Origin: a virus
Taxonomy: Duplodnaviria > Caudoviricetes
Length of the DNA stretch: 59,076 nt
Strand: one strand, 5' to 3'
IMG/VR virus record: IMGVR_UViG_3300043353_000061
Location: 1-59,076 of that record
The position numbers and the translations under genes are program-made. Shown here piece after piece: positions 4,030-53,613 of the stretch. Position 1 is the stretch's first letter. Every line of letters starts with the position of its first letter. Below the pieces are notes generated by a model. It did no database searches and had not been told where the DNA came from. It saw nothing but the letters and a program-made list of their open reading frames with translations.

Positions 4030-4752
4030 TTAACGGCAGTTGTCGAGGTAAACCACTTCCAGGTCGTCGCGGACCTTCGCCATCACTTCCGCCACGACGC
4101 TATGCACGAGCTGTTTGGACACGCCGAACGACGCCGCGACCTCCTTCAGCGTCTTCGCCGACCCGCCGGCCATCCCGTACCGCATGGCGAACATCTGCCG
4201 TTTCCGCGGGCTCGACACCCGCCGGCGGAGCACGTCGGCCACGGCCGTCCGCAGCCGACTGCCTTGGCACCGCCTGACGGGGTCGAGGGACGGGTCGGCG
4301 GGCGACTCGACGACCACGAACGGGCCGGCATCGGAGTCCCCCAGCCGGGTCGTGTCCCCGCTCATCACCCGCAGGCCGGCACGGCGGGCGGGGCACCACT
4401 CCGTCACCGCCCGCCCCACCACGGCGCGGCACCACAGGGACCAGTAGCTGGTGAACGCCGCCCCACGGGTCGGGTCGTACTTGGCCGCCGCCCGCACCGC
4501 CGCCAGTCGGCACAACTGGCCCACCTCCGACGGATCGAACCGGGCCTGCCTCGCGGCGAGAGCGACCGACGGCCACATGGCGTACAACAGGTTCTCGGGG
4601 TGCGGCCACTCGGCGAGCGTCGATTCCACCAGCGCCACGCCGTCCGGGCTAAGCCGCACCCGCCACCGCCGGCCGTCCACCCACTCGGGGACGCCGAACG
4701 GGCCGACCAGCGGCGGCATGAGCGGGTCGTGGTTCCTGTACGGCACCCCCAT
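4030..4752 (-). CDS. Sigma-70 family factor-like protein
   Basis: Region 2-like RAAAKYDPTRGAAFTSY and region 4 HTH TLKEVAASFGVSKQLV. Confidence 0.75.
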   Translation of the reverse strand: MGVPYRNHDPLMPPLVGPFGVPEWVDGRRWRVRLSPDGVALVESTLAEWPHPENLLYAMWPSVALAARQARFDPSEVGQLCRLAAVRAAAKYDPTRGAAFTSYWSLWCRAVVGRAVTEWCPARRAGLRVMSGDTTRLGDSDAGPFVVVESPADPSLDPVRRCQGSRLRTAVADVLRRRVSSPRKRQMFAMRYGMAGGSAKTLKEVAASFGVSKQLVHSVVAEVMAKVRDDLEVVYLDNCR

Positions 4753-7780: not shown

Positions 7781-8458
7781 TCACTTGGTGATGGCTTCCG
7801 CCGCGATCCTGCGGTGTTCCGGGGCCACGTCCCAGAACCCGGCGTCCGGCTTGTACTTGCCGCCGTGCTTGTCGTTCAGCCAGGCCACCACCTTCGGCCA
7901 CTCCCGCTTGCTCTTGCTCAGCCGGTCGAAGAATGCGTCGTCGTCCTCCCACAGCGGCACGGCGGTCGCCACGCTGGTGACGGGGTGTTGGGGCAGTGGC
8001 GGGCGTTGTTGCGGTGGATGAGTCAGTGCCGGTTGCTGGCGTTGCTGCGGCGCACGGCTCGCGTGGTTGCCGTCGTTGCCGTCGTCGTCGTCATCCGCCG
8101 TGATGCCCAGCACCGCTTGCAGTCCGTAGCGCCTCGCATACGTGAGCGCCGCCCCCGTGCTCTGCGGGTCGGCCTTGATGGGCCGCAGACCGATCGTGCT
8201 GCGGACATACTCGCCGCTCTCGTGGATGAGCATGGTGGACAACGCCGGGCCGACGCCATCCACCTCGCACGGCAGTTGCACCACCCCCAGCTTGAACTTC
8301 GCCAGCACCGGCTTCACCGTGTCCAGCACGGTGGCCAGGTCCGCGAACCGGCTCTTGAAGTGCGGGTTCACGCTGTCCTTCGGCGGGTTCCGCATCTCCG
8401 CTTGCGCCGCCACCAGCGCGGCGAACAGCTTGGAAACGGTTGCAGATTGCTCGACCAT
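7781..8458 (-). CDS. erf: ERF-family single-strand annealing protein
   Basis: NPHFKSRFADL, PQSTGAALTYARRYGL, DDD motif. Confidence 0.9.
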   Translation of the reverse strand: MVEQSATVSKLFAALVAAQAEMRNPPKDSVNPHFKSRFADLATVLDTVKPVLAKFKLGVVQLPCEVDGVGPALSTMLIHESGEYVRSTIGLRPIKADPQSTGAALTYARRYGLQAVLGITADDDDDGNDGNHASRAPQQRQQPALTHPPQQRPPLPQHPVTSVATAVPLWEDDDAFFDRLSKSKREWPKVVAWLNDKHGGKYKPDAGFWDVAPEHRRIAAEAITK

Positions 8459-8479: not shown

Positions 8480-8770
8480 TCAGAACGGAATCCAGGTGTC
8501 GAAACATTTTTCGGTGCAGTGGTCGCCATGCACCCGCGGGGACCACGGCCACAGACGCTTGCGGCACGACGCGCAACGCTGAACGAAGAACCGCCGACCG
8601 AGATGCCACCGCACGTCGGCCAGCCAGTCCCGCAGCGGGGCGAGCCAGGACAAGCGGTATTCGATGTGATCCGGGTCGTAGATGTATTCGCCGCACCGGG
8701 GACAGAACGGCCCGTGCTCGTCGTACCCGCAGCCGAACAGCCGACAACGGAACCGTTTGAGCATGTTCAT
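8480..8770 (-). CDS. Cys-rich hypothetical protein
   Basis: CRLFGC, CPRCG, CASC. Confidence 0.55.
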   Translation of the reverse strand: MNMLKRFRCRLFGCGYDEHGPFCPRCGEYIYDPDHIEYRLSWLAPLRDWLADVRWHLGRRFFVQRCASCRKRLWPWSPRVHGDHCTEKCFDTWIPF

Positions 8771-8843
8771 CCCCCTGGAAAAACCGGGCGGCGACACATT
8801 GCCACCGCCCGGCCTGTCGAACCCACCGCCACGAGCGATGGAC

Positions 8844-9230
8844 TCACGCACCTTGCATCTGTCGCACCGGCAGCCCGCCCGCCACGATCACGTCCTGAAC
8901 GGCGTCCTTGTGCTTGCAGGAGTTGCGGCGGAAACCCATCCGCCCCGCGTCGCAACTGCACCGCTGCACCGGCCCGACCGTCACCCGGTACGGCTGCTCC
9001 TGCTCGTCGTCCGTCACGTTCACCAGCGCGAACGTGCGGCACCGGGGGAACTCCGGCTGAATCTCCTCCACCCCGTACACGTCCAGCTCCGACCCGCCGC
9101 CCTTGATCGGCCGCTGACTCACGCTCAGCATCCCGTCCCCGCCGCCGCCCGGCGTGCAGACGAACACCCACTTCCGCCAGCCGTAGGTGAGCGTGTCCGG
9201 CATCTGCCCGTGGTACACCTTGCCGATCAT
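8844..9230 (-). CDS. SWIM zinc-finger protein
   Basis: YRV...CSCD...CKH. Confidence 0.7.
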   Translation of the reverse strand: MIGKVYHGQMPDTLTYGWRKWVFVCTPGGGGDGMLSVSQRPIKGGGSELDVYGVEEIQPEFPRCRTFALVNVTDDEQEQPYRVTVGPVQRCSCDAGRMGFRRNSCKHKDAVQDVIVAGGLPVRQMQGA

Positions 9231-9252
9231 GGTTCGCCCTCTGTCTGAAAGA

Positions 9253-9420
9253 TGCCCGGTGGGGGAGTCGAACCGCCCATCCTCCGCTCAGTTGCGGTCG
9301 CTCTCTTCGAGGGGGAGCGGGTGCAGGTGTTGCCCGGTCGTCGCTGTTGGGTCGCGCGCCACTTACCAGCGACTTCCGCACCTGCCGCCTTGTCCTCTTT
9401 CTCCGTTGAGCTAACCGGGC
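9253..9420 (-). ncRNA. tRNA-like RNA with ~90-nt structured insertion
   Basis: Acceptor GCCCGGT/ACCGGGC+A, TAGCTCAA D-arm start, GGCGG-TTCGACT-CCCCC T-arm; intergenic. Confidence 0.7.
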
Positions 9421-9425
9421 GTGTC

Positions 9426-9746
9426 TCACTCGTCGTCGTAGCCTGTCGCCTTTTGCAGTTGCTTCACGGTCCACTTGTCAACGCACGCCTTGAAGATCGA
9501 CACCGCCTGCGTTCTCGCCTTGTGGCGTGCTTCCGTCGTCAACTCTTCGAGCAGATGCACCTTCTCTTGCATCCTGGCCCACTCTTCGACCACCTTCGCC
9601 AGTGGCGTCTTTCCCGCCCCCGGAAGACTCTTGAGTCTGCCCAACAGTTCGGCCGTGTACTTGTCGTCTAGCTCGATGGTTCCCAAGAACTCCAGCAGAC
9701 CCTTCGGTAAATCTCTCAGTCGCGTCTTCGATTTTGCCTTCGCCAT
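9426..9746 (-). CDS. Hypothetical protein
   Basis: Helical basic ORF, coupled to upstream gene. Confidence 0.6.
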   Translation of the reverse strand: MAKAKSKTRLRDLPKGLLEFLGTIELDDKYTAELLGRLKSLPGAGKTPLAKVVEEWARMQEKVHLLEELTTEARHKARTQAVSIFKACVDKWTVKQLQKATGYDDE

Positions 9747-9964
9747 TACTTGCCCTCGAAATACTTTGTGACCTCCCGGCGGACGTACCGGATTCCGCAC
9801 CCGCTGAACCCGACCGCCATGAGCGTGCGGCGCGAACCGTCTTCGACATTCTGAAGGGCCAGCCAGTACACCCCGCCGTTCTCGTACACGAACACCATCC
9901 CGTTCTCGGACACCTTGCGAGCGTGAGCGGTGGCCTTCTCGATGATGGTTTCGGTCGCGGTCAT
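9746..9964 (-). CDS. Hypothetical protein
   Basis: First gene after promoter at 9990-10018. Confidence 0.55.
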   Translation of the reverse strand: MTATETIIEKATAHARKVSENGMVFVYENGGVYWLALQNVEDGSRRTLMAVGFSGCGIRYVRREVTKYFEGK

Positions 9965-9989
9965 CGGTCGGCCCTCGGGTGATGCCACT

Positions 9990-10018
9990 ACTATACCCCC
10001 GATAGTTGCACCGTGCAA
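9990..10018 (-). promoter_or_regulatory. Sigma-70 promoter TTGCAC-N17-TATAGT with TTGCA-N3-TGCAA operator
   Basis: 17-nt spacing; palindrome at 10006-10018. Confidence 0.7.
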
Positions 10019-10064
10019 AGTGTACGGCTGTACAAAGTCCGGCGAATTACCGACTTCGCTTTCA

Positions 10065-10262
10065 TCATCCCTTCGGGAGCTTTTCGCGGATGAGCGCGGC
10101 CGCTCTTACGTCGATGGGCACGAGGTCGCGCAGCCACCGGGAGGTGGTGCTGGGACTCATGCCGATCAGCTTGGCGAGCGCGTACCCGCTCTTCACCCCG
10201 TTGGCCGACATGCGGCGTTTCAGGGTGGCTGAGGTCATGCCGACTTTCGGTGAAGGACTCAT
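10065..10262 (-). CDS. Small Cro/XRE-like HTH regulator (leaderless), paralog of 6992-7195
   Basis: YALAKLIGMSPSTTSRW; TACGAT 7 nt before the ATG. Confidence 0.8.
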   Translation of the reverse strand: MSPSPKVGMTSATLKRRMSANGVKSGYALAKLIGMSPSTTSRWLRDLVPIDVRAAALIREKLPKG

Positions 10263-10353
10263 AGCAATCATCGTATCCGCCTTTTGCACGCTGCAATTAG
10301 CCACCAGTCAGACTCCGGCCCCCGTGCGGTGTTCACGCGGCCCCCGCCGAATC

Positions 10354-11240: not shown

Positions 11241-11647
11241 CACCGTGACCTCCCCGGATGACTCAGGCTGTTCGTCCTGCCGAACACCCCCACCACCGGC
11301 GGCGGCACCCAGGCCAGGCAGCGGGCGATGACGGCCTCTACTTGGTCCATCAGGTCGCACGCCTGCCGGTAACTCACCGGCCCGCGACCCCGCACGATCA
11401 CTGAGGGAGTGGGCCACTTTCCCGACACCGACTCGTCCGATGCGATCAGGCGGAGGGACACCACCGTCCGCAGGGGTGGGGCGTCCTTGTCCGCGTAGGC
11501 CACCGCCGCGTGCAGTTGCACCAGCCACCCCCGCAGATCCTCGACGCTCACCAGCTCGACCCCGACCCGCGTGCCGCACTCGATCAGCCCGGAGCTGCGG
11601 CATCTGGCGAACAGGTCGTTCTCGGCGGCGGGTTTCGTGCGGGTCAT
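11240..11647 (-). CDS. Hypothetical protein
   Basis: Coupled to the sigma gene. Confidence 0.55.
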   Translation of the reverse strand: MTRTKPAAENDLFARCRSSGLIECGTRVGVELVSVEDLRGWLVQLHAAVAYADKDAPPLRTVVSLRLIASDESVSGKWPTPSVIVRGRGPVSYRQACDLMDQVEAVIARCLAWVPPPVVGVFGRTNSLSHPGRSR

Positions 11648-12501
11648 GAGGGCTGCTCCGTGGCGGGTTCGCACGTTCGCCTCCCCTTGCACGGCGGGAT
11701 GAACTTCCGCTTCCGCCAGTTCCACAACGTTTGCACCGACGCCTCACGCGGCCGGCGGCAGTGCGGGCAGGCCACCAGCACGGAACCCGCTTTCTCTGTC
11801 GGCTTCGCCTTGCGGTAGCCGTCGGCCGACAGCCCCAGGGCCGCCAGGCACCGCGTCACGCCCGCCGTCGGCTCGTCCTCGTACCTCGCCGGGGCCGGCG
11901 GCGTGGTCGTCACACCGGCCCGATCGAGGACCGCCCTGTGCATCTGGCTCACCCGGCTCTCGCTCACCCCCAGCCGGACGGCGATCTCCCGCATCCCAAC
12001 CTCGTCCACGTAGTACCACGCCATCAGCCGGCGCTCGGCGGCGGCGAGCGCCCCGAACAGCCTCTTGCACACCGACAGGAACTCGGCCTCCACGCCGTCG
12101 GTCGGCTCCGGATCGCGGTGGACCGGGTCGATGCGGTAGGCGTCCGCGGCGTTCCGCGTGTGGGTGACGTCCGCCCCCCGGCGGCAAAGGAACTGCCGCC
12201 GGTTCAGGGTGGTGAACGTCTCCATCTTCGCCAGCGGCAACCCACGCTGCACGTCCAGCCGCGGCGCGAAACTGGCCACCCGCATCGCGTCGAGCACGGC
12301 CCCCCGGATGCGGGGGGTGAAGTAGGTGCATGGCTTGCCGATCGCCGGGTCGTAGTTCGCCGCCGCCCTCAGCACCGCCGCCCGCGCCTCTTGTGCCAGG
12401 TCGTCCGCGTCCAGCGGGCTTTGCGGGTGCCGCCGTGCCGTCAACTCCGCGTGCCGTCTGATGAACCGCTCGCACGCCGTTACTGCTTCCTCGCCAGTCA
12501 T
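11644..12501 (-). CDS. FliA/WhiG-like sigma factor with C-terminal Cys-rich extension
   Basis: DDLAQEA..YDP..TYFTPRIRGAVLDAMR; region 4 MREIAVRLGVSESRVSQMH; CPHC tail. Confidence 0.85.
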   Translation of the reverse strand: MTGEEAVTACERFIRRHAELTARRHPQSPLDADDLAQEARAAVLRAAANYDPAIGKPCTYFTPRIRGAVLDAMRVASFAPRLDVQRGLPLAKMETFTTLNRRQFLCRRGADVTHTRNAADAYRIDPVHRDPEPTDGVEAEFLSVCKRLFGALAAAERRLMAWYYVDEVGMREIAVRLGVSESRVSQMHRAVLDRAGVTTTPPAPARYEDEPTAGVTRCLAALGLSADGYRKAKPTEKAGSVLVACPHCRRPREASVQTLWNWRKRKFIPPCKGRRTCEPATEQPS

Positions 12502-12752
12502 GAACACCCCTCCTCTGGTTTCACTTCCTTCGCCCACGCGAGCGGCAGCCCGTGCCGCCGCGCCCACTCGATCAGGTGCCTCCGCAGAATCCGCCGGTCC
12601 CGCCCCCTGGACGGCAGGCGGTGGCATTTCAGGTCGCCCGTGTCGCAACACCGCACGATGGTCGCCTGGGAGAACTCGAACAACTCGGCCACCATCGTGG
12701 GACTGAACACCGGGCGGTCGGCTAACGGCAGTTTGCTACGTCCGCACGCCAT
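12498..12752 (-). CDS. Excisionase/MerR-like HTH protein
   Basis: VFSPTMVAELFEFSQATIVRCCDTGDLKCHRLP..RRI. Confidence 0.75.
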   Translation of the reverse strand: MACGRSKLPLADRPVFSPTMVAELFEFSQATIVRCCDTGDLKCHRLPSRGRDRRILRRHLIEWARRHGLPLAWAKEVKPEEGCS

Positions 12753-39566: not shown

Positions 39567-40136
39567 TCACTTGGCCGGCTGGATGTCGATCGCGTCTATG
39601 ATCGGCCTGCTCAGCACCAGATCGGTCGCGGCGCCTTTCACCCGGATAATGTCACCGGCTTTGTGTTTTTTGAGTTGGTCTTTGGTTGCAGCCGTCGAGC
39701 ACTCGATTTCGACGTGGTCGAATGAAAAACCTTGGGCAAAAAGCGGATCGAGTTGAGCCTCCAGCTTACCGCCAGTCCCGCTGTTTACAGACTTCAGTTT
39801 GCCAGTGACCGTTACGCCTTGTTGCCGATACTTGTCAGCAGCCGTTGCCGCGTTCGCCTTCCATTCCTTGATCATCTCATCGGCCGTCATTTCCGGATAA
39901 GTGCGGTTGCCGGCCAGCTGACGCTCTACCTGTTGTTGACTGACGACCGCGTTGTTCACCGGCGCCGCGGTGAAGAACATGGCGAACACGCCAAACGCCG
40001 TCACCCCGCCGCACAGGAGAAGAATCGCCCCGACGACCACCAGGATCAGCCACAGGGCGACGGAATTGCCGGCTGATCGGCGGGCCGGCTTCTCGTAATC
40101 GCCGCTGTCGTCTTCATCGCGTCGTCGTCGGCTCAT
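39567..40136 (-). CDS. Membrane-anchored OB-fold (tRNA_anti-like) protein, possible superinfection exclusion
   Basis: RRRRDEDD start, TM with LLLCGG, N..AADKY...VTVTG, GDIIRVKG. Confidence 0.7.
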   Translation of the reverse strand: MSRRRRDEDDSGDYEKPARRSAGNSVALWLILVVVGAILLLCGGVTAFGVFAMFFTAAPVNNAVVSQQQVERQLAGNRTYPEMTADEMIKEWKANAATAADKYRQQGVTVTGKLKSVNSGTGGKLEAQLDPLFAQGFSFDHVEIECSTAATKDQLKKHKAGDIIRVKGAATDLVLSRPIIDAIDIQPAK

Positions 40137-40194
40137 GGCGTCACCCCTGTGGGAAGGTGACGGAGTTGTAGGCAAAGTGGTTCGGTCGAAAAGG

Positions 40195-40437
40195 TTATTC
40201 CGATGGGATGAGATCGGCGGGTGTACATCCCAACGCGCTGGCGAGCCGCTGTAGCGTCGAAATGGTCGGCTCACGTTCGCCCCGTTCCAGCCGGGCGAAC
40301 GCACTGTAGGCCATCCCTGAAGCCGTGGCGGCGTCTTGGATGGACAGGCCGACTTCCTCCCGCTTCTCGCGGAGTCGAACGCCGAACGCCACCGCAACGG
40401 GGTTCGTGTCTTTCTTCTTCTTCGCCACGGCAAGCAC
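40195..40437 (-). CDS. XRE-family repressor
   Basis: FGVRLREKREEVGLS..ARLERGEREPT..LASALG. Confidence 0.88.
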   Translation of the reverse strand: MLAVAKKKKDTNPVAVAFGVRLREKREEVGLSIQDAATASGMAYSAFARLERGEREPTISTLQRLASALGCTPADLIPSE

Positions 40438-40458
40438 GCGGGGTTCCTCCGGAAAAAG

Positions 40459-40500
40459 TACCTACTGGTATTGCCTACGGCTACCAATTGGTACTAGTAT
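40459..40500. promoter_or_regulatory. Divergent promoter with TACC-N4-GGTA operators
   Basis: TACCTACTGGTA 40459-40470, TACCAATTGGTA 40482-40493; TTGCCT and TAGTAT boxes. Confidence 0.65.
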
Positions 40501-49730: not shown

Positions 49731-52700
49731 TCAGGCTCCGGTGGGTTTCATCTGGCCCTTGCGGTTCTTCTTGTGCTCCCCGCCCGCCCTGCCGTCCACC
49801 TTCACGAAGTGGAACTCGCCCGCACCCGACGGGTGGAGCGTGTGGCTCCGCAACACGTCGTCCGGGTGGTGGTCTTGAGGCATATCGACCCGGTTCAGGT
49901 TCACCTTGGCTTTGGCGTTCAGGGCCAGCAGTTTCTCTTTGAACTCCGGCAGAGTCAGTTCGGGGTGCGACTTCTTCAGGTCGTCGTACACGTCGGAGAT
50001 GAACGCCTTGTTCGGACCGCTGCCGTACTCGGCGGTTCGTGCCGCCTCGTTCACCTTCGCGGCGATTTCGTCGTCGGTGTGGGACAGAAGAGTTTTGGCG
50101 GGTGTCATCGGCTTGCCTCCCGTGGCAGGTGCGGGAGTTTTGCCGGCGGGCGTCGGCTTGTCAATGTTCGTAGCCCCCACCTTCGCCTTGCCCAGCACAT
50201 ACTCCCCGCCCTTCCCTTCCACAATCCTGTGCCCGTGGCTCCGCACCGTGACGGGGGCACCCGTGGAGACGGAACTATCGCTCTCGTGGTGAACCGGGTT
50301 GAAGGGCACAGTTGACCCCACCTCGCCAATCCTCTCGGCTCCGACGTGCTCACCAGTCAGCAGCGAATCGGCGATCTCGGCGGCGTCGTGCTTCCCAAGT
50401 CTCACGGCGTCCCGGTGGGCGCTCTGTAGCCGGCGGGCGACGAGCCTACGGTGGTCACGATCACTCAGCCCTTCCTCAGCCCCGCTCACGTTGCCGAGTG
50501 CCACTTCCGCTGCGGACGTATCCTTGCCCGCTGCCTGGTGCTTGCCCACTTCCGCCGCGAGGGCTTGCGAGCGGGGGTGGGCGAAGGACAGGGACTCGCC
50601 GTCGGCGGTGGTCAGGGTGTGGGCGGGGGGCGGGGTGGGCGAAGACTCAGCCACCTTCCGTGCGTGTGCCGTCCCCTCGTTCTCGCTCTCCCCGTTGCCA
50701 CCCGGCCCCTTGCCGCCGCCGGTCAGGATCGGCGTGGCGTCCGGGTTCTTCCGCCGGCCCCACGCGGCCGACAGCTCGGCCCGCCGCGCCTTCTCGGCCG
50801 GCGTGAGCGAGCGGAACGGCTTGCGGTTGAGGGACGCCAGTTCGGCGTCGTCCGGGTGGGCCTGCGGCCCATCTGAGGTGGCTACTCCGCTTCCTGCTCC
50901 GTCGCTGGCGAGGTTGGCGATGGGATCGGCTGAGTGCGCACTTCCAGAATCCACCCCGACGGAAGGCTGATTGACGTTTTTTGTTCGTCCTGAATCAACG
51001 GTAGCGTCGCCGGCTGTTGATCCGTTTGGTTTTGCAAGTCCGAACTCCTGAAAGACTTGGTAAGACTCGGGGAACTTCTGTTTTAGTGTGTCTTCGTCTA
51101 CCGCTCCCGTCCACAGACACATACCGAACTCAGCGAACCCCTCGAACGTAGACGCCGCCCCCAAATTCGACAGCCCGCCGCCTGCCATCTCTTTTTCCCA
51201 CGCTTGCCTCCATTCTTCCGTATTACTGAATGAGAAGCTGTCACCGTCAATGACGTGAGCATATTCGTGGGCGTGGTTTTGTGCGAGGCGCTTTGGGTTC
51301 GTCTCCTTGCCTACAACCACCTCGCCGGTTTGACGGTTGTAAGCTGCTGGAACTGTCGCCCCCATCTGCTTCAGTCGCTTCAAACTCTCCTGCTCAGGGT
51401 GTTCTTTAATGAACTGATCCAAGAGATCACGTTCGTTGGACACCGTCAATTTAGATAGGTTTTTGGACAACAAGCCCGCAGCCTTATCCGACATCCGCGA
51501 ACACGCCGTCGCGGCCGCTTTTTTGTGGTCGTATTGATATCCTCTGGGAACGTCTGACGCATCGATATCGGCTACGAGACGGGCTTTTAATGCCTCCGTC
51601 ACCCCCTCCACCTTCTCCCCCGGCCCGACCCCCCGCTTCGGGAACTCATCCCGCGAAGCCTCAGGCTTGCCACCAGTGCCCCCCGCCGCCTGCCCCCACG
51701 CCCCGTACTGACCGCTCACCTTGTTCCCCGCCCGTTGCAGCGCATCCCCGACCCCGTGCCCCTTCTCCCGCCCGGCCTTGATCGCGTCCACGAGCCGTTG
51801 GGCGACGTCCATCTGTAGCCCGCTCACCTTCTGACCCAGCACCCGCAACAGCCCCTTCGCCTCCTCTTTGTTGAGTGCGTGGACGTGGGCGATCAGGTTC
51901 TTGGCCTGTTCCGGGTTGAGCTTGTTCGGGTCCGAAACAGCCATTGCCACGATGGTGTGGCTCTCGTGCTTCTGCTCGGCGGTCAACTCCTTGGCGCCGC
52001 CCTGGTGCGTCTGCACCCCCTCATCCGCCGCTTGGCCCGCCGACTGCCCCCGGTGCGTCTCGCCCTCCGCCGGCTTCACCCACACCACCTGCCGATTCCC
52101 AAGCCGGTTCGTGATGACCTTCCGCACGAGGTGACTTCGATCGCCCTTCGTCACCCGCTCCAGCTCCCACTCGTCTTCCACGTCCTGCAACAGTCGCTCA
52201 TACTCGTCGGGGTCGAACGCCTTCACCCACCGCAGCACGTCGCCCAGCCCTTCCGCCTCTGCTTCCGCCTCCAGCCGCTCTTCCGCTTCATCCGGCACCT
52301 CCTCCAACATCGTCGCAATCGGGTCGTCCAACTCCATCACAGCCGCCTTCACGACTCTCCAATTGCTCCATTCTGATACACAGGCTTCCAGTGCGTACAG
52401 GAACGCGCTGGCGGCGTCTTCTCTCGCCAACGACTTGACCCGCCGTGCCACGGGGATCGCCAGCCTACGGGCCACTGGGAGCGGTTCCAGGCGCCGTGCG
52501 GTCGGCAGGCGCTGGGCGACGGGGAGTTCGCGGGCAATCTGGGGGGCGATGGGGGTGGCGCGACGGCGTGCGATTGGCACAGCCGGCCTTGCCGCTACGA
52601 CCGTTGCCATCCGTCGTTTCAGCACCACCGCGACCTGTTGAAGTTCCTGCGGGTTGAGGGCACTCAGGGCGTCAATCAGGGCCGGCAGCTTCTCCGGCGT

Positions 52701-53327
52701 GATGGTCTCGGGCTGCGTCACCGCTTCGGCCACGGCTTGCCGCTTCTCGGGGACCGACGCCCCGAAGACGGCATCGAGGTCCGGGTTGTGCCGCAGGTTG
52801 GAATCGTCGGGGGGCGGGGGTGACGCACTTGGTGCCCCGAACGCCGCGTCGAGGTCGGGATTGTGGCGGGGGTCAGTAGACGGTGCCGACGCCGGCCGTG
52901 CGGTCTGCTCGGCCTCCGGCGCTCGTGTCAACTGCACCACCTTCTCCCGTGCCGCCTTGACCTTCGCATCGGCCTCTTTCAGTTTCGCTTGTAGCCCCTG
53001 GAGCTTCTCGTGGTTCTCTTTGGCCGCAATCGCTTGTTCCAATTGCCCCCGGATGGCTTCCACTTCGGCCTTGGCCTTCTTCGTCTCCTTGCGGAAGTGC
53101 CGGTCGTCGCTGTCGCGGTCGTCGCGGTTGCCGTAGGTCACGCCGGGGGCGACCCGCGACTGGTGCCGGCCGTCGTTGGGCCGGACCCATCGGTGCTTCT
53201 GCTTGTCGAAGACGAGGCCGGGGCGGGGTGGCGTGCCCTGGGCCTTGAGGAACGCCAGCCCGACCTCGGCGAGCGTGCGGGTGCGGACGTCCTCGAGGGC
53301 TTTGCGGATGTGGTCGGAGACGGTCAC
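49731..53327 (-). CDS. Large multidomain head-associated protein with zincin (HEYAH) domain
   Basis: Between portal and protease; HAHEYAHVID..EGFAE; GrpE-like FNPVHHE segment; start 53327 or 53420. Confidence 0.78.
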   Translation of the reverse strand: MTVSDHIRKALEDVRTRTLAEVGLAFLKAQGTPPRPGLVFDKQKHRWVRPNDGRHQSRVAPGVTYGNRDDRDSDDRHFRKETKKAKAEVEAIRGQLEQAIAAKENHEKLQGLQAKLKEADAKVKAAREKVVQLTRAPEAEQTARPASAPSTDPRHNPDLDAAFGAPSASPPPPDDSNLRHNPDLDAVFGASVPEKRQAVAEAVTQPETITPEKLPALIDALSALNPQELQQVAVVLKRRMATVVAARPAVPIARRRATPIAPQIARELPVAQRLPTARRLEPLPVARRLAIPVARRVKSLAREDAASAFLYALEACVSEWSNWRVVKAAVMELDDPIATMLEEVPDEAEERLEAEAEAEGLGDVLRWVKAFDPDEYERLLQDVEDEWELERVTKGDRSHLVRKVITNRLGNRQVVWVKPAEGETHRGQSAGQAADEGVQTHQGGAKELTAEQKHESHTIVAMAVSDPNKLNPEQAKNLIAHVHALNKEEAKGLLRVLGQKVSGLQMDVAQRLVDAIKAGREKGHGVGDALQRAGNKVSGQYGAWGQAAGGTGGKPEASRDEFPKRGVGPGEKVEGVTEALKARLVADIDASDVPRGYQYDHKKAAATACSRMSDKAAGLLSKNLSKLTVSNERDLLDQFIKEHPEQESLKRLKQMGATVPAAYNRQTGEVVVGKETNPKRLAQNHAHEYAHVIDGDSFSFSNTEEWRQAWEKEMAGGGLSNLGAASTFEGFAEFGMCLWTGAVDEDTLKQKFPESYQVFQEFGLAKPNGSTAGDATVDSGRTKNVNQPSVGVDSGSAHSADPIANLASDGAGSGVATSDGPQAHPDDAELASLNRKPFRSLTPAEKARRAELSAAWGRRKNPDATPILTGGGKGPGGNGESENEGTAHARKVAESSPTPPPAHTLTTADGESLSFAHPRSQALAAEVGKHQAAGKDTSAAEVALGNVSGAEEGLSDRDHRRLVARRLQSAHRDAVRLGKHDAAEIADSLLTGEHVGAERIGEVGSTVPFNPVHHESDSSVSTGAPVTVRSHGHRIVEGKGGEYVLGKAKVGATNIDKPTPAGKTPAPATGGKPMTPAKTLLSHTDDEIAAKVNEAARTAEYGSGPNKAFISDVYDDLKKSHPELTLPEFKEKLLALNAKAKVNLNRVDMPQDHHPDDVLRSHTLHPSGAGEFHFVKVDGRAGGEHKKNRKGQMKPTGA

Positions 53328-53331
53328 GGGG

Positions 53332-53613
53332 TCACTCCGCCGGTTCGTAGATGGCCGCGAAGATATCCGGCTTGCACGGGTAACATCCGCGGCCGTCTGG
53401 CTCGGCAATGACCCAGTCACCGGGAGCCACCGGCGTCTTGTGCCCGTGGGCCGTGACGCAGAACGCCTCGCACTTTTGGTTCGTCCCGCTGGCGTCCGGC
53501 TCGCTCCACTCGAACACCAGCGGGAGAATGTCGTTGTTGATGAATCGGTGGTTGTCGCCGCCGTCGCGGTACTGCATGGCTTCGACCACCACCGGCTTCT
53601 TGCGAAACTTCAT
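53332..53613 (-). CDS. Conserved phage protein (PGDYG-like)
   Basis: MKFRKKPVVVEA..PGDWVI..YPCKPDIF..YE. Confidence 0.8.
   Translation of the reverse strand: MKFRKKPVVVEAMQYRDGGDNHRFINNDILPLVFEWSEPDASGTNQKCEAFCVTAHGHKTPVAPGDWVIAEPDGRGCYPCKPDIFAAIYEPAE

What the first reader, a model, noticed from the sequence alone, without database searches (positions are those of the whole stretch)
9253..9420. tRNA-shaped RNA with a large structured insertion and no canonical anticodon loop
Seen (minus strand): 7-bp acceptor GCCCGGT/ACCGGGC-A, TA-GCTC start and T-arm GGCGG-TTCGACT-CCCCC, but 168 nt long. Internal stems are GCAGGTG/CACCTGC and GTCGCTG/CAGCGAC. The 3' part GAGC-G-ACCGC-AACTGA-GCGG-AGGAT fits a D-stem 3' strand plus a 6-nt-loop pseudo-anticodon arm, so the insert may lie in the D-loop. 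It fills the gap between two early genes. Known: P1 C4 and P4 CI antisense RNAs are structured RNAs matured by RNase P. Inference: a processed regulatory or decoy RNA on a tRNA scaffold, for example a sponge for anticodon nucleases or an antisense regulator.
Basis: partly seen in the sequence, partly recalled or inferred. Interest (0 to 1): 0.78.

Follow-up and report, generated by a model that had tools for sequence, protein, structure and literature searches.

The report
Valine-tRNA relic with a large insert
A soil phage carries a gene built on the body of a valine tRNA, but with a 97-base hairpin inserted in one loop and a ruined anticodon loop, so it cannot decode and is either a broken tRNA or a tRNA-shaped carrier for another RNA.

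Summary
Minus strand 9420..9253 (168 nt) fills a non-coding 195-nt gap between two same-strand early genes of a 65% GC temperate phage. It has a perfect 7-bp acceptor stem, exact A-box and B-box consensus and discriminator A. The chance expectation for that combination is about 4e-7 per window.

New here: the body belongs to the phage tRNA-Val(UAC) family. Its first 18 nt are identical to four ARAGORN-called tRNA-Val genes in IMG/VR contigs. Outside the anticodon loop, 53 of 65 aligned positions match the closest one, which is the range seen among true tRNA-Val genes. Against them it has three differences:
- a 97-nt insert between G19 and G20 of the D-loop;
- a 6-nt loop AACUGA in place of CUUACAA (1 of 7 positions kept);
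- an extra or mismatched C in the T-stem.

ARAGORN and Rfam do not call it, so it cannot decode. No homologue of the insert or of the whole element was found, the nearest relatives of the downstream gene lack it, and no RNA data exist.

My best reading (0.4) is a non-decoding tRNA-like RNA cut from the early transcript by tRNA-processing enzymes. A plain dead tRNA gene is almost as likely (0.38).

The parts
9253..9420 (-). whole tRNA-Val-derived element, 168 nt (element position p = window 9421-p)
9414..9420 (-). 5' acceptor strand GCCCGGT
   Evidence: pair probabilities 0.68-1.0
9403..9413 (-). U8 A9, D-stem 5' strand GCUC and D-loop start AACGG (exact A-box TRGCNNARNGG, with G18 G19)
   Evidence: the first 18 nt are identical to 7 normal tRNAs in IMG/VR contigs
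9306..9402 (-). 97-nt insert between G19 and G20 of the D-loop; predicted as one long imperfect hairpin
   Evidence: alignment A3; fold; no similar sequence elsewhere
9347..9366 (-). 20-nt apical loop of the insert hairpin, closed by the 7-bp stem GUCGCUG/CAGCGAC
   Evidence: no significant target in the window
9299..9305 (-). G20 A21, D-stem 3' strand GAGC, G26
   Evidence: D-stem pair probability 0.95
9283..9298 (-). anticodon-like arm ACCGC-AACUGA-GCGGA: 4 bp plus an A.A mismatch, and a 6-nt loop without U33
9261..9278 (-). T-arm: GGG(C)GG / CCCCC stem with a bulged or mismatched C; loop UUCGACU (exact B-box)
9253..9260 (-). 3' acceptor strand ACCGGGC and discriminator A; no CCA is encoded
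9426..9800 (-). upstream early ORF (124 aa); its stop codon lies 5 nt before the element
8844..9230 (-). downstream ORF (128 aa, CxC...CxH motif); GAGGG ribosome-binding site and ATG start 22 nt after the element

Best explanation
The element is a gene derived from the phage tRNA-Val(UAC) family that no longer decodes.

Shown: the acceptor stem, D-stem, D-loop and T-loop contact nucleotides and the discriminator are those of working tRNA-Val genes. A 97-nt insert sits between G19 and G20 of the D-loop. The anticodon loop is replaced by a 6-nt loop, AACUGA, without U33.

Inferred: it has no promoter of its own and lies in the early operon, so it is transcribed as part of the polycistronic early RNA. 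It keeps the 7-bp acceptor stem and T-arm that tRNA end-processing enzymes recognise. RNase P would therefore cut at its 5' end (9421|9420). A 3' tRNA-processing nuclease plus the CCA-adding enzyme would finish the 3' end at 9253. This would release a roughly 170-nt tRNA-shaped RNA and separate the upstream message from the downstream one, whose ribosome-binding site starts just after the element.

Speculative: the tRNA body acts as a processing and stability carrier for the 97-nt hairpin. What the released RNA then does (decoy for tRNA-binding proteins, regulator) is unknown.
For: Body of tRNA-Val origin:
- The 5' 18-mer is identical in 7 IMG/VR contigs, all normal tRNAs at that site, 4 of them tRNA-Val(tac).
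- The closest cultured relatives of those genes are annotated tRNA-Val(tac) genes of Streptomyces phages.
- Outside the anticodon loop, 53 of 65 aligned positions match L280 Val. True tRNA-Val genes match each other at 43-58 of 64-65, leaving out one near-identical pair at 63 of 64.

Body kept, loop not:
- The loop keeps 1 of 7 positions, against 5-7 of 7 among true members.
- Fisher p = 7e-4, or 0.003 without the first 18 nt.
- This is the opposite of even, neutral decay.

Fold and setting:
- The cloverleaf dominates the folding ensemble.
- With the insert removed in silico, ARAGORN at default settings calls a tRNA with a 6-nt loop in 44 of 130 constructs.
- U8, A14, G18 G19, A21, G26, U54 U55 C56 and A58 are all present.
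- The gap is non-coding.
- The only promoter-like site in 8700-10100 is upstream at 10019-9990, and no terminator-like site lies in the gap next to the element.

From papers (passages seen):
- A 7-bp acceptor stem is named as a major RNase P determinant, and a tRNA-like domain of Mycobacterium smegmatis YrlA is cut by RNase P and receives CCA (PMC4201824).
- Bacterial RNase P also processes mRNAs and phage regulatory RNAs (PMC4919922).
Against: - No homologue of the whole element or of the insert was found in any collection searched.
- The relatives of the downstream gene that could be read lack the element at that place. L040 (63% identity) has another small ORF there. Contigs of run X5 that share the gene's start diverge right upstream of the ATG.
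- The insert's fold is no better than that of shuffled GC-rich sequence.
- With the insert removed, ARAGORN accepts the body only up to 104% of its threshold, against 118% for a real tRNA. One chance construct elsewhere in the window reached 106%.
- An aptamer placed in the D-loop of E. coli tRNA-Tyr (between 16 and 18) gave no detectable RNA, while variable-loop fusions were stable (PMC5397188, passages).
- The reference tRNAs were picked by identity of the first 18 nt, which inflates body identity. The ancestor may have been a different isoacceptor.
Confidence: 0.4

Rival explanations
1. It is a dead tRNA-Val gene: a recently disabled phage tRNA hit by three lesions (a 97-nt insertion in the D-loop, a scrambled and shortened anticodon loop, a T-stem defect). 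It has no selected function and has not yet been deleted. Any processing would be incidental.
For: - It is not conserved in the relatives that could be read.
- No homologue was found anywhere.
- The insert's fold is not significant.
- No target was found for the apical loop.
- It is not callable as a tRNA.
- An insertion in the D-loop destabilised an E. coli tRNA (PMC5397188).
Against: - Change is concentrated in the 7-nt anticodon loop (6 of 7), while the body is as conserved as in working genes and all stems but one position are intact. Even, neutral decay does not predict this.
- Phage genomes tolerate little useless DNA (general knowledge).
- The insert sits at the one D-loop place where natural tRNAs vary in length, and it leaves G18 G19 and A21 in place.
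Confidence: 0.38
2. It is a sponge or decoy for a host tRNA-targeting defence nuclease or another tRNA-binding protein. The tRNA body attracts the protein, and the 6-nt loop without U33 cannot be cut or used. This is a special case of the best explanation.
For: - Intact L-shape nucleotides together with an abnormal anticodon loop.
- Phage tRNAs have been proposed to evade anticodon nucleases through anticodon-loop changes (PMC10264068, title and abstract in the search listing only).
Against: - There is no direct evidence.
- A sponge needs abundance, but the element has no promoter of its own.
- No tRNA repair or defence-related gene was seen in the 60 ORFs scanned against Pfam.
- It is a single occurrence.
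Confidence: 0.1
3. It is an intron-containing working tRNA: the 97-nt insert is spliced out and the rest decodes.
For: The insert's ends lie next to each other at the base of a hairpin. Archaeal tRNAs do carry D-loop introns; one example turned up in the archaeal locus L196.
Against: - After removal of the insert the anticodon loop still has 6 nt and no U33. ARAGORN reports a two-base anticodon.
- The phage is bacterial: it encodes sigma-70 factors.
- The junction is an internal loop, not a bulge-helix-bulge motif (structure).
- There is no group I intron or ribozyme match, and 97 nt is too short for one.
Confidence: 0.03
4. It is a chance resemblance in GC-rich non-coding DNA.
For: After arbitrary in-silico deletions, ARAGORN also calls weak tRNAs at 5 other places in the window (7 of the 20 hits among 392,320 constructs).
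Against: The joint expectation of A-box, B-box and 7-bp acceptor is about 4e-7. There is 18-nt identity and 82% body identity to real tRNA-Val genes.
Confidence: 0.01

Closest known systems
Phage-encoded tRNA-Val(UAC) genes (IMG/VR contigs L277, L278, L280, L283; Streptomyces phages such as TunaTartare, Lululemon, GiJojo)
   Same: - Same acceptor stem, U8 A9, D-stem GCUC/GAGC, D-loop AACGG..GA and G26.
- Same T-loop UUCGACU, discriminator A and no encoded CCA.
- The A27.A43 mismatch is shared with L277 and L278.
- 45-53 of 65 body positions are identical.
   Different: - A 97-nt insert between G19 and G20.
- A 6-nt loop AACUGA instead of CUUACAA, so no UAC anticodon.
- An extra or mismatched C in the T-stem.
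- It stands alone in the early operon of a temperate phage rather than in a tRNA cluster.
Archaeal (and red-algal) tRNA genes with introns at non-canonical positions, including the D-loop
   Same: A tRNA body interrupted in the D-loop by a structured insert. One example was seen in passing in L196. Papers: PMC4090602 and PMC3241643, titles and abstracts in search listings only.
   Different: - Those introns are removed at a bulge-helix-bulge motif by an archaeal or eukaryotic endonuclease.
- This element has no such motif (structure).
- Its host is bacterial.
- The tRNA left after removal would still be unusable.
tmRNA
   Same: A tRNA-like acceptor and T-arm module whose two halves are separated by a large internal segment; also found in phages.
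   Different: - ARAGORN's tmRNA search is negative and Rfam is negative.
- Position 3:70 is C-G, not the G.U alanine mark.
- No tag reading frame: the only frame ending at the insert's UAA reads GGRCGSRW.
- It keeps a D-stem and an anticodon-like arm.
RNase P-processed phage regulatory RNAs (P1/P7 C4 antisense RNA; P4 CI recalled only)
   Same: A phage early-region RNA that would owe its ends to tRNA-processing enzymes. C4 as an RNase P substrate is listed in PMC4919922 (passages and reference list).
   Different: Those RNAs mimic only part of a tRNA and have known antisense targets. Here there is a full cloverleaf, no target was found in the window, and Rfam gives no match.
Bacterial Y RNAs (YrlA) with a tRNA-like domain
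   Same: A non-decoding RNA with tRNA-like D and T arms. The M. smegmatis YrlA is cut by RNase P and receives CCA (PMC4201824, passages).
   Different: - In YrlA the RNA's ends lie in the Ro-binding stem and the gene sits beside a Ro60 gene.
- Here the ends lie in the acceptor stem.
- No Ro60-type gene was seen among the ORFs scanned.
- Rfam gives no match.
Engineered tRNA fusions and tRNA scaffolds (Spinach-tRNA fusions; Ponchon-Dardel scaffold, recalled)
   Same: A foreign structured RNA of about 100 nt carried on a tRNA body, total length about 170-180 nt (PMC5397188, passages).
   Different: Engineered cargo sits in the variable loop or anticodon stem. The one D-loop fusion tested (between 16 and 18) was not detectable in E. 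coli. Here the insert is natural and lies between 19 and 20.

Membership tests
canonical decoding tRNA | Recognised by tRNA detectors | tested here: not met
   ARAGORN finds 0 genes in the window. It also finds 0 with intron and relaxed options, and makes only forced calls at 70% of its threshold. The Rfam tRNA model gives no match, even at E<=10.
canonical decoding tRNA | 7-bp acceptor stem, discriminator base, T-loop UUCGANU, and the D-loop and T-loop contact nucleotides | tested here: met
canonical decoding tRNA | 7-nt anticodon loop with U33 and a three-base anticodon | tested here: not met
   The loop is AACUGA: 6 nt, with A at the second position. ARAGORN reports a two-base anticodon after insert removal.
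canonical decoding tRNA | D-loop of about 7-11 nt | tested here: not met
   97 extra nt lie between G19 and G20.
phage tRNA-Val(UAC) family | Sequence homology of the tRNA body | tested here: met
   The 18-nt 5' identity and 53 of 65 positions outside the loop identical to L280, within the range of true members.
phage tRNA-Val(UAC) family | Anticodon UAC with A35 and C36, the main valine identity marks (PMC9976931, passages) | tested here: not met
   1 of 7 loop positions is kept. A73, G20 and G45 are still present.
tmRNA | G3.U70 alanine mark, tag reading frame, detection by ARAGORN or Rfam | tested here: not met
   C3-G70; no tag-like frame; negative.
tRNA with an archaeal-type intron | Bulge-helix-bulge motif at both junctions, and a usable tRNA after removal | tested here: not met
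   The junctions face each other across an internal loop in the predicted structure. The body left after removal has a 6-nt loop. The phage encodes bacterial sigma factors.
tRNA with a group I intron | Intron in the anticodon loop, at least about 200 nt, with a group I core | tested here: not met
   The insert is 97 nt and lies in the D-loop. There is no Rfam intron or ribozyme match.
YrlA / Y RNA | Match to the family model and a Ro60 gene nearby | tested here: not met
   No Rfam match. No Ro60-type domain in the 60 ORFs scanned. Not every small ORF was scanned.
RNase P / tRNA-end-processing substrate (works like one; not a sequence family) | Cleavage at the base of the acceptor stem and CCA addition in cells or in vitro | not testable with these tools
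   Only the structural prerequisites are shown. No RNA run holds the sequence.

The most novel reading that the evidence does not exclude
This is a natural tRNA-scaffolded RNA. The phage has turned a tRNA-Val body into a carrier that uses the host's RNase P, 3' processing, CCA addition and the nuclease resistance of the tRNA fold to release and stabilise a 97-nt hairpin from its early transcript. The hairpin projects from the elbow at the D-loop variable pocket. The anticodon loop was remodelled so that the RNA stays out of translation. The product acts in trans on a host tRNA-binding protein or a host RNA. It would be a phage counterpart of the tRNA scaffolds that engineers use, at a site (position 19/20) not known to accept large inserts.
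Probability: 0.2. Interest if true: 0.8.

Novelty: new variant of a known kind. Interest (0 to 1): 0.45.

Why it matters
If the RNA is made and stable, it would show that a bacterial virus can use a tRNA body as a carrier for an unrelated structured RNA. It would also show that the D-loop between positions 19 and 20 tolerates a roughly 100-nt helix. That bears on tRNA-like decoys in phage-host conflict, on RNase P as a maker of phage regulatory RNAs, and on the design of tRNA scaffolds.

If it is only a broken tRNA, it is an ordinary relic. It is still a useful warning that standard tRNA finders miss such genes.

Either way, the link to phage tRNA-Val genes, whose closest cultured relatives are in Streptomyces phages, is a weak hint at an actinobacterial host for this uncultured soil phage.

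Tried and rejected
**Homologue searches that found nothing useful**
- blastn of the 371-nt region against cultured phages found no match.
- At E<=10, phages gave 15 records and plasmids 13, all 20-40-nt pieces with E>=0.1.
- The exact 3' 22-mer had 0 matches in IMG/VR and 1 in genome contigs. That hit, in a Nocardioidaceae MAG (L041), has only the 3' part and no cloverleaf.
- Protein-guided searches with the two flanking ORFs and the portal protein found nothing in IMG/VR or genome contigs.
- ERF relatives (36 viral and 2 genome loci, about 40% identity) hold no copy.
- The one metagenome relative, L040, lacks the element upstream of the homologous gene.
- Covariance model R1 found only the element itself and its own reverse-complement hairpin in 332,388 bases.
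- 0 of 401 sampled genomes of the class of L041's genome matched at E<=1e-6.
- The insert against 293 held loci (2.28 Mb) gave a best hit of 25 nt at E = 0.012.

**Search for analogues of the architecture**
- The pattern was A-box TAGCTCAACGG, then 113-143 nt, then the B-box. It gave 235 matches in 233 loci.
- 26 matches had at least 6 of 7 acceptor pairs. Of these, 19 are two adjacent normal tRNAs, 6 are one tRNA beside a partial copy, and 1 is an archaeal multi-intron tRNA.
- None is a bacterial or phage analogue.

**Sequencing runs**
- No RNA holder is listed.
- Contigs of four DNA runs gave only identical pieces of the same phage, or relatives that diverge upstream of the downstream gene's ATG.

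**Target search**
- The apical loop's best duplex on minus-strand RNA is -33.2 kcal/mol. Fifteen shuffled loops gave best values of -29.6 to -33.7.

**Other leads dropped**
- T-arm-like fragments in intergenic gaps of Gordonia phage Cafasso and Arthrobacter phage Emotion do not fold as tRNA-like modules.
- A second copy of ACCGGGCA inside the insert allows an alternative helix, but that fold is 14 kcal/mol worse. A repeated 8-mer within 168 nt is not unusual; that last point is my own estimate, not a tool result.
- No tRNA-like attP remnant was seen beside the integrase gene.

**Literature**
- Six full-text searches turned up no bacterial or phage tRNA-like RNA with a large D-loop insert.
- Supplementary tables of PMC10690425 (10,006 candidate viral structured RNAs) could not be seen and might list it.

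**Not available**

Full report
**Setting**

The window is a single IMG/VR virus record of 59,076 bases, estimated 75% complete, with 61-71% GC. A soil metagenome run holds it. It is a tailed, temperate bacterial phage. Pfam and PHROGs identify:
- an HK97-type capsid, a portal and large and small terminase subunits;
- a tyrosine integrase and an ERF recombinase;
- two sigma-70 family proteins and several HTH regulators.

Nearly all genes are on the minus strand.

The element lies in a 195-nt gap (9231-9425) between a 124-aa ORF (9426-9800) and a 128-aa ORF (8844-9230). It is downstream of a CI/Cro-like HTH gene (10065-10304) and about 0.8 kb upstream of ERF (7781-8458). That places it in an early operon. 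The only promoter-like site in 8700-10100 is at 10019-9990, and no terminator-like site lies in the gap next to the element.

Yes.
- The unconstrained minimum-energy fold of the 168 nt is a cloverleaf. It has a 7-bp acceptor stem, a D-stem GCUC/GAGC enclosing a long hairpin, a 4-bp stem with the 6-nt loop AACUGA, and a T-arm with a bulged C.
- This fold dominates the ensemble. Pair probabilities are acceptor 0.68-1.0, D-stem 0.95, anticodon-like stem 0.98-1.0 and T-stem 0.71-0.74.
- The gap is non-coding. GC content is 0.59-0.69 at every codon position in all six frames, against GC3 0.70-0.93 and GC2 0.41-0.55 in four neighbouring genes.

**Is it more than chance?**

For the tRNA body, clearly yes.
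- The B-box GGTTCGANTCC occurs once in the window, here, against 0.24 expected.
- The A-box TRGCNNARNGG occurs 6 times on the two strands, and a 7-bp Watson-Crick stem at a fixed spacing has probability 1.9e-4.
- The three together, in register, are expected about 4e-7 times per window.

For the insert's structure, no.
- The insert alone has z = -1.68, and 13 of 200 shuffles fold as well.
- The whole element has z = -1.95, and 10 of 200 do.

A second control gave a sobering result.
- With the insert removed in silico, ARAGORN at default settings calls a tRNA in 44 of 130 constructs. Of the 40 rows printed, 39 are 'tRNA-???' with a two-base anticodon.
- The same procedure over the whole window used 392,320 constructs. 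It gave 20 hits: 13 at this locus and 7 at five other places.
- The best constructs here pass only up to 104% of ARAGORN's threshold. One chance construct reached 106% and a real tRNA-Met reached 118%.
- ARAGORN's verdict alone therefore proves little. The box-plus-acceptor statistics and the homology below carry the case.

**Standard detectors**

ARAGORN finds no tRNA or tmRNA in the window. It also finds none with intron or relaxed settings, and makes only forced calls at 70% of its threshold. Rfam finds nothing at gathering scores. At E<=10 in 9100-9600 it finds only three unrelated plus-strand matches.

**What the body is**

- The first 18 nt occur exactly in 7 IMG/VR contigs. At each of those sites ARAGORN calls a normal tRNA: four tRNA-Val(tac) in contigs of 62-68% GC, and one each of Ile(gat), Thr(tgt) and Asn(gtt).
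- The closest cultured relatives of those tRNA-Val genes are annotated tRNA-Val(tac) genes of Streptomyces phages, with 144 and 69 matching records.
- I aligned the element with six such genes. It equals a tRNA-Val body plus one block of extra sequence. The flanks AACGG and GAGAGC match the normal D-loop AACGG-GA-GAGC, so the insert is 97 nt between G19 and G20.
- Outside the anticodon loop the element matches L280 Val at 53 of 65 positions and L277/L278 at 51 of 65. True tRNA-Val genes match each other at 43-58 of 64-65, apart from one near-identical pair at 63 of 64.
- The A27.A43 mismatch is shared with L277 and L278.
- In the anticodon loop the true genes keep 5-7 of 7 positions among themselves. 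The element keeps 1 of 7: AAC-UGA against CUUACAA.
- This contrast has Fisher p = 7e-4, or 0.003 if the first 18 nt used to find the relatives are left out.
- The remaining oddity is one extra or mismatched C in the 5' strand of the T-stem.

**Consequences for function**

- With a 6-nt loop lacking U33 it cannot read codons.
- The main valine identity marks A35 and C36 are gone, while A73, G20 and G45 remain (PMC9976931, passages). Charging by ValRS is therefore unlikely.
- It is not a tmRNA: position 3:70 is C-G, there is no tag frame, and the detectors are negative.
- It is not an archaeal-type intron. The two junctions face each other across an internal loop rather than forming a bulge-helix-bulge, the host is bacterial, and removing the insert would not restore a usable tRNA.
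- It is not a group I intron or a known ribozyme.
- What remains intact is what tRNA end-processing enzymes read: a 7-bp acceptor stem stacked on a T-arm with a canonical T-loop, plus G18 G19.
- A 7-bp acceptor stem is described as a major RNase P determinant. The tRNA-like domain of the M. smegmatis Y RNA is cut by RNase P and receives CCA (PMC4201824, passages).
- RNase P also cuts bacterial mRNAs and phage regulatory RNAs such as C4 (PMC4919922, passages and reference list).
- I therefore infer that the element is excised from the early transcript. This would leave an upstream message ending 5 nt after its stop codon and a downstream message starting 22 nt before its ATG, with its GAGGG ribosome-binding site. 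This step is inferred, not shown.

**Is it maintained or decaying?**

For maintenance:
- the body is as conserved as in working genes, while the loop is rewritten;
- the insert sits at the D-loop position where natural tRNAs vary in length, and it leaves all contact nucleotides in place;
- phage genomes rarely keep useless DNA (general knowledge).

For decay:
- I found no homologue of the insert or of the whole element;
- the pattern search found no analogue of the architecture. Of its 235 matches, 26 had a compatible acceptor, and all 26 were tandem or partial tRNA duplicates or one archaeal intron-bearing tRNA;
- the downstream protein has nine homologues at 48-86% identity. The only one whose DNA I could read, L040, has a different small ORF in place of the element;
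- contigs of run X5 that share the first 40 nt of the gene diverge immediately upstream;
- the apical loop has no better target in the window than shuffled loops do;
- a Spinach aptamer placed in the D-loop of E. coli tRNA-Tyr, at 16/18 rather than 19/20, gave no detectable RNA (PMC5397188, passages).

No RNA run holds the sequence, so expression is untested (this is not evidence either way).

**Verdict**

- Observation: confirmed.
- Origin: a tRNA-Val-family gene with a 97-nt D-loop insert and a destroyed anticodon loop. I hold this with about 0.9 confidence.
- Present role, open: 0.40 for a non-decoding tRNA-like RNA that is processed out of the early transcript; 0.10 for the decoy sub-case; 0.38 for a dead relic.
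- Precedent: six literature searches found no description of a bacterial or phage tRNA-like RNA with a large D-loop insert. The unseen supplements of PMC10690425 might list it.
- It rests on one sequence, so interest is moderate.

T4 species 1 and 2 RNAs and the Ponchon-Dardel tRNA scaffold are recalled comparisons that I did not check in any call.

Noticed in passing
window 8844-9230 (-): The 128-aa protein just downstream has invariant C91, C93, C105 and H107 (a CxC...CxH pattern, zinc-finger-like) across nine homologues of 48-86% identity. All come from metagenomes. It has no Pfam or PHROG family.
   Followed up: partly
window 11644-12651 (-) and 4030-4752 (-): The temperate phage encodes two sigma-70 family proteins with regions 2 and 4.
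   Followed up: no
window 49731-53420 (-): A 1229-aa ORF between the portal gene and the capsid-region genes has no Pfam match at E<=0.001.
   Followed up: partly
L176 5964-6146 (+), Patescibacteria MAG: A 5' fragment of a tRNA-Arg-like gene carries about 70 extra nt in its D-loop (AACGGA...TAGAGC). It lies directly upstream of an intact tRNA-Arg(tcg) with a very similar 5' half. It looks like a partial duplicate with a D-loop insertion.
   Followed up: no
L196 1440-1617 (+), uncultured archaeon: A 178-nt stretch has a perfect 7-bp acceptor, an A-box and a B-box, but ARAGORN makes no call. It is probably a tRNA with several introns, one of them in the D-loop.
   Followed up: no
L041 3995-4017 (+), Nocardioidaceae MAG: 23 nt are identical to the element's T-loop, 3' T-stem, 3' acceptor strand and discriminator. 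There is no matching 5' acceptor strand and no ARAGORN tRNA. An inverted copy of the T-loop region lies about 60 nt upstream. Unexplained.
   Followed up: partly
L042 601-625 (Gordonia phage Cafasso) and L043 601-627 (Arthrobacter phage Emotion): Unannotated intergenic gaps, on the same strand as the flanking genes, hold a T-arm plus 3' acceptor-like piece (GGGGG-TTCGACT-CCCCC-ACCGAGC-A in Cafasso). In Emotion the gap is 198 nt, just upstream of DNA polymerase I. Predicted folds do not give a clear tRNA-like module.
   Followed up: partly
window 9332-9339 (-), element positions 83-90: The insert contains a second copy of ACCGGGCA, the 3' acceptor strand plus discriminator. As the RNA is made, the 5' acceptor strand could first pair with this copy: the first 90 nt fold with an 8-bp terminal helix at -32.2 kcal/mol. 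In the full RNA this fold is 14 kcal/mol worse than the cloverleaf.
   Followed up: partly
window 39567-40487 (-): A 306-aa ORF has a weak match to the Pfam tRNA_anti-like OB-fold domain (E = 8.8e-5, 22.5 bits, just under the 23.5-bit cut-off).
   Followed up: no
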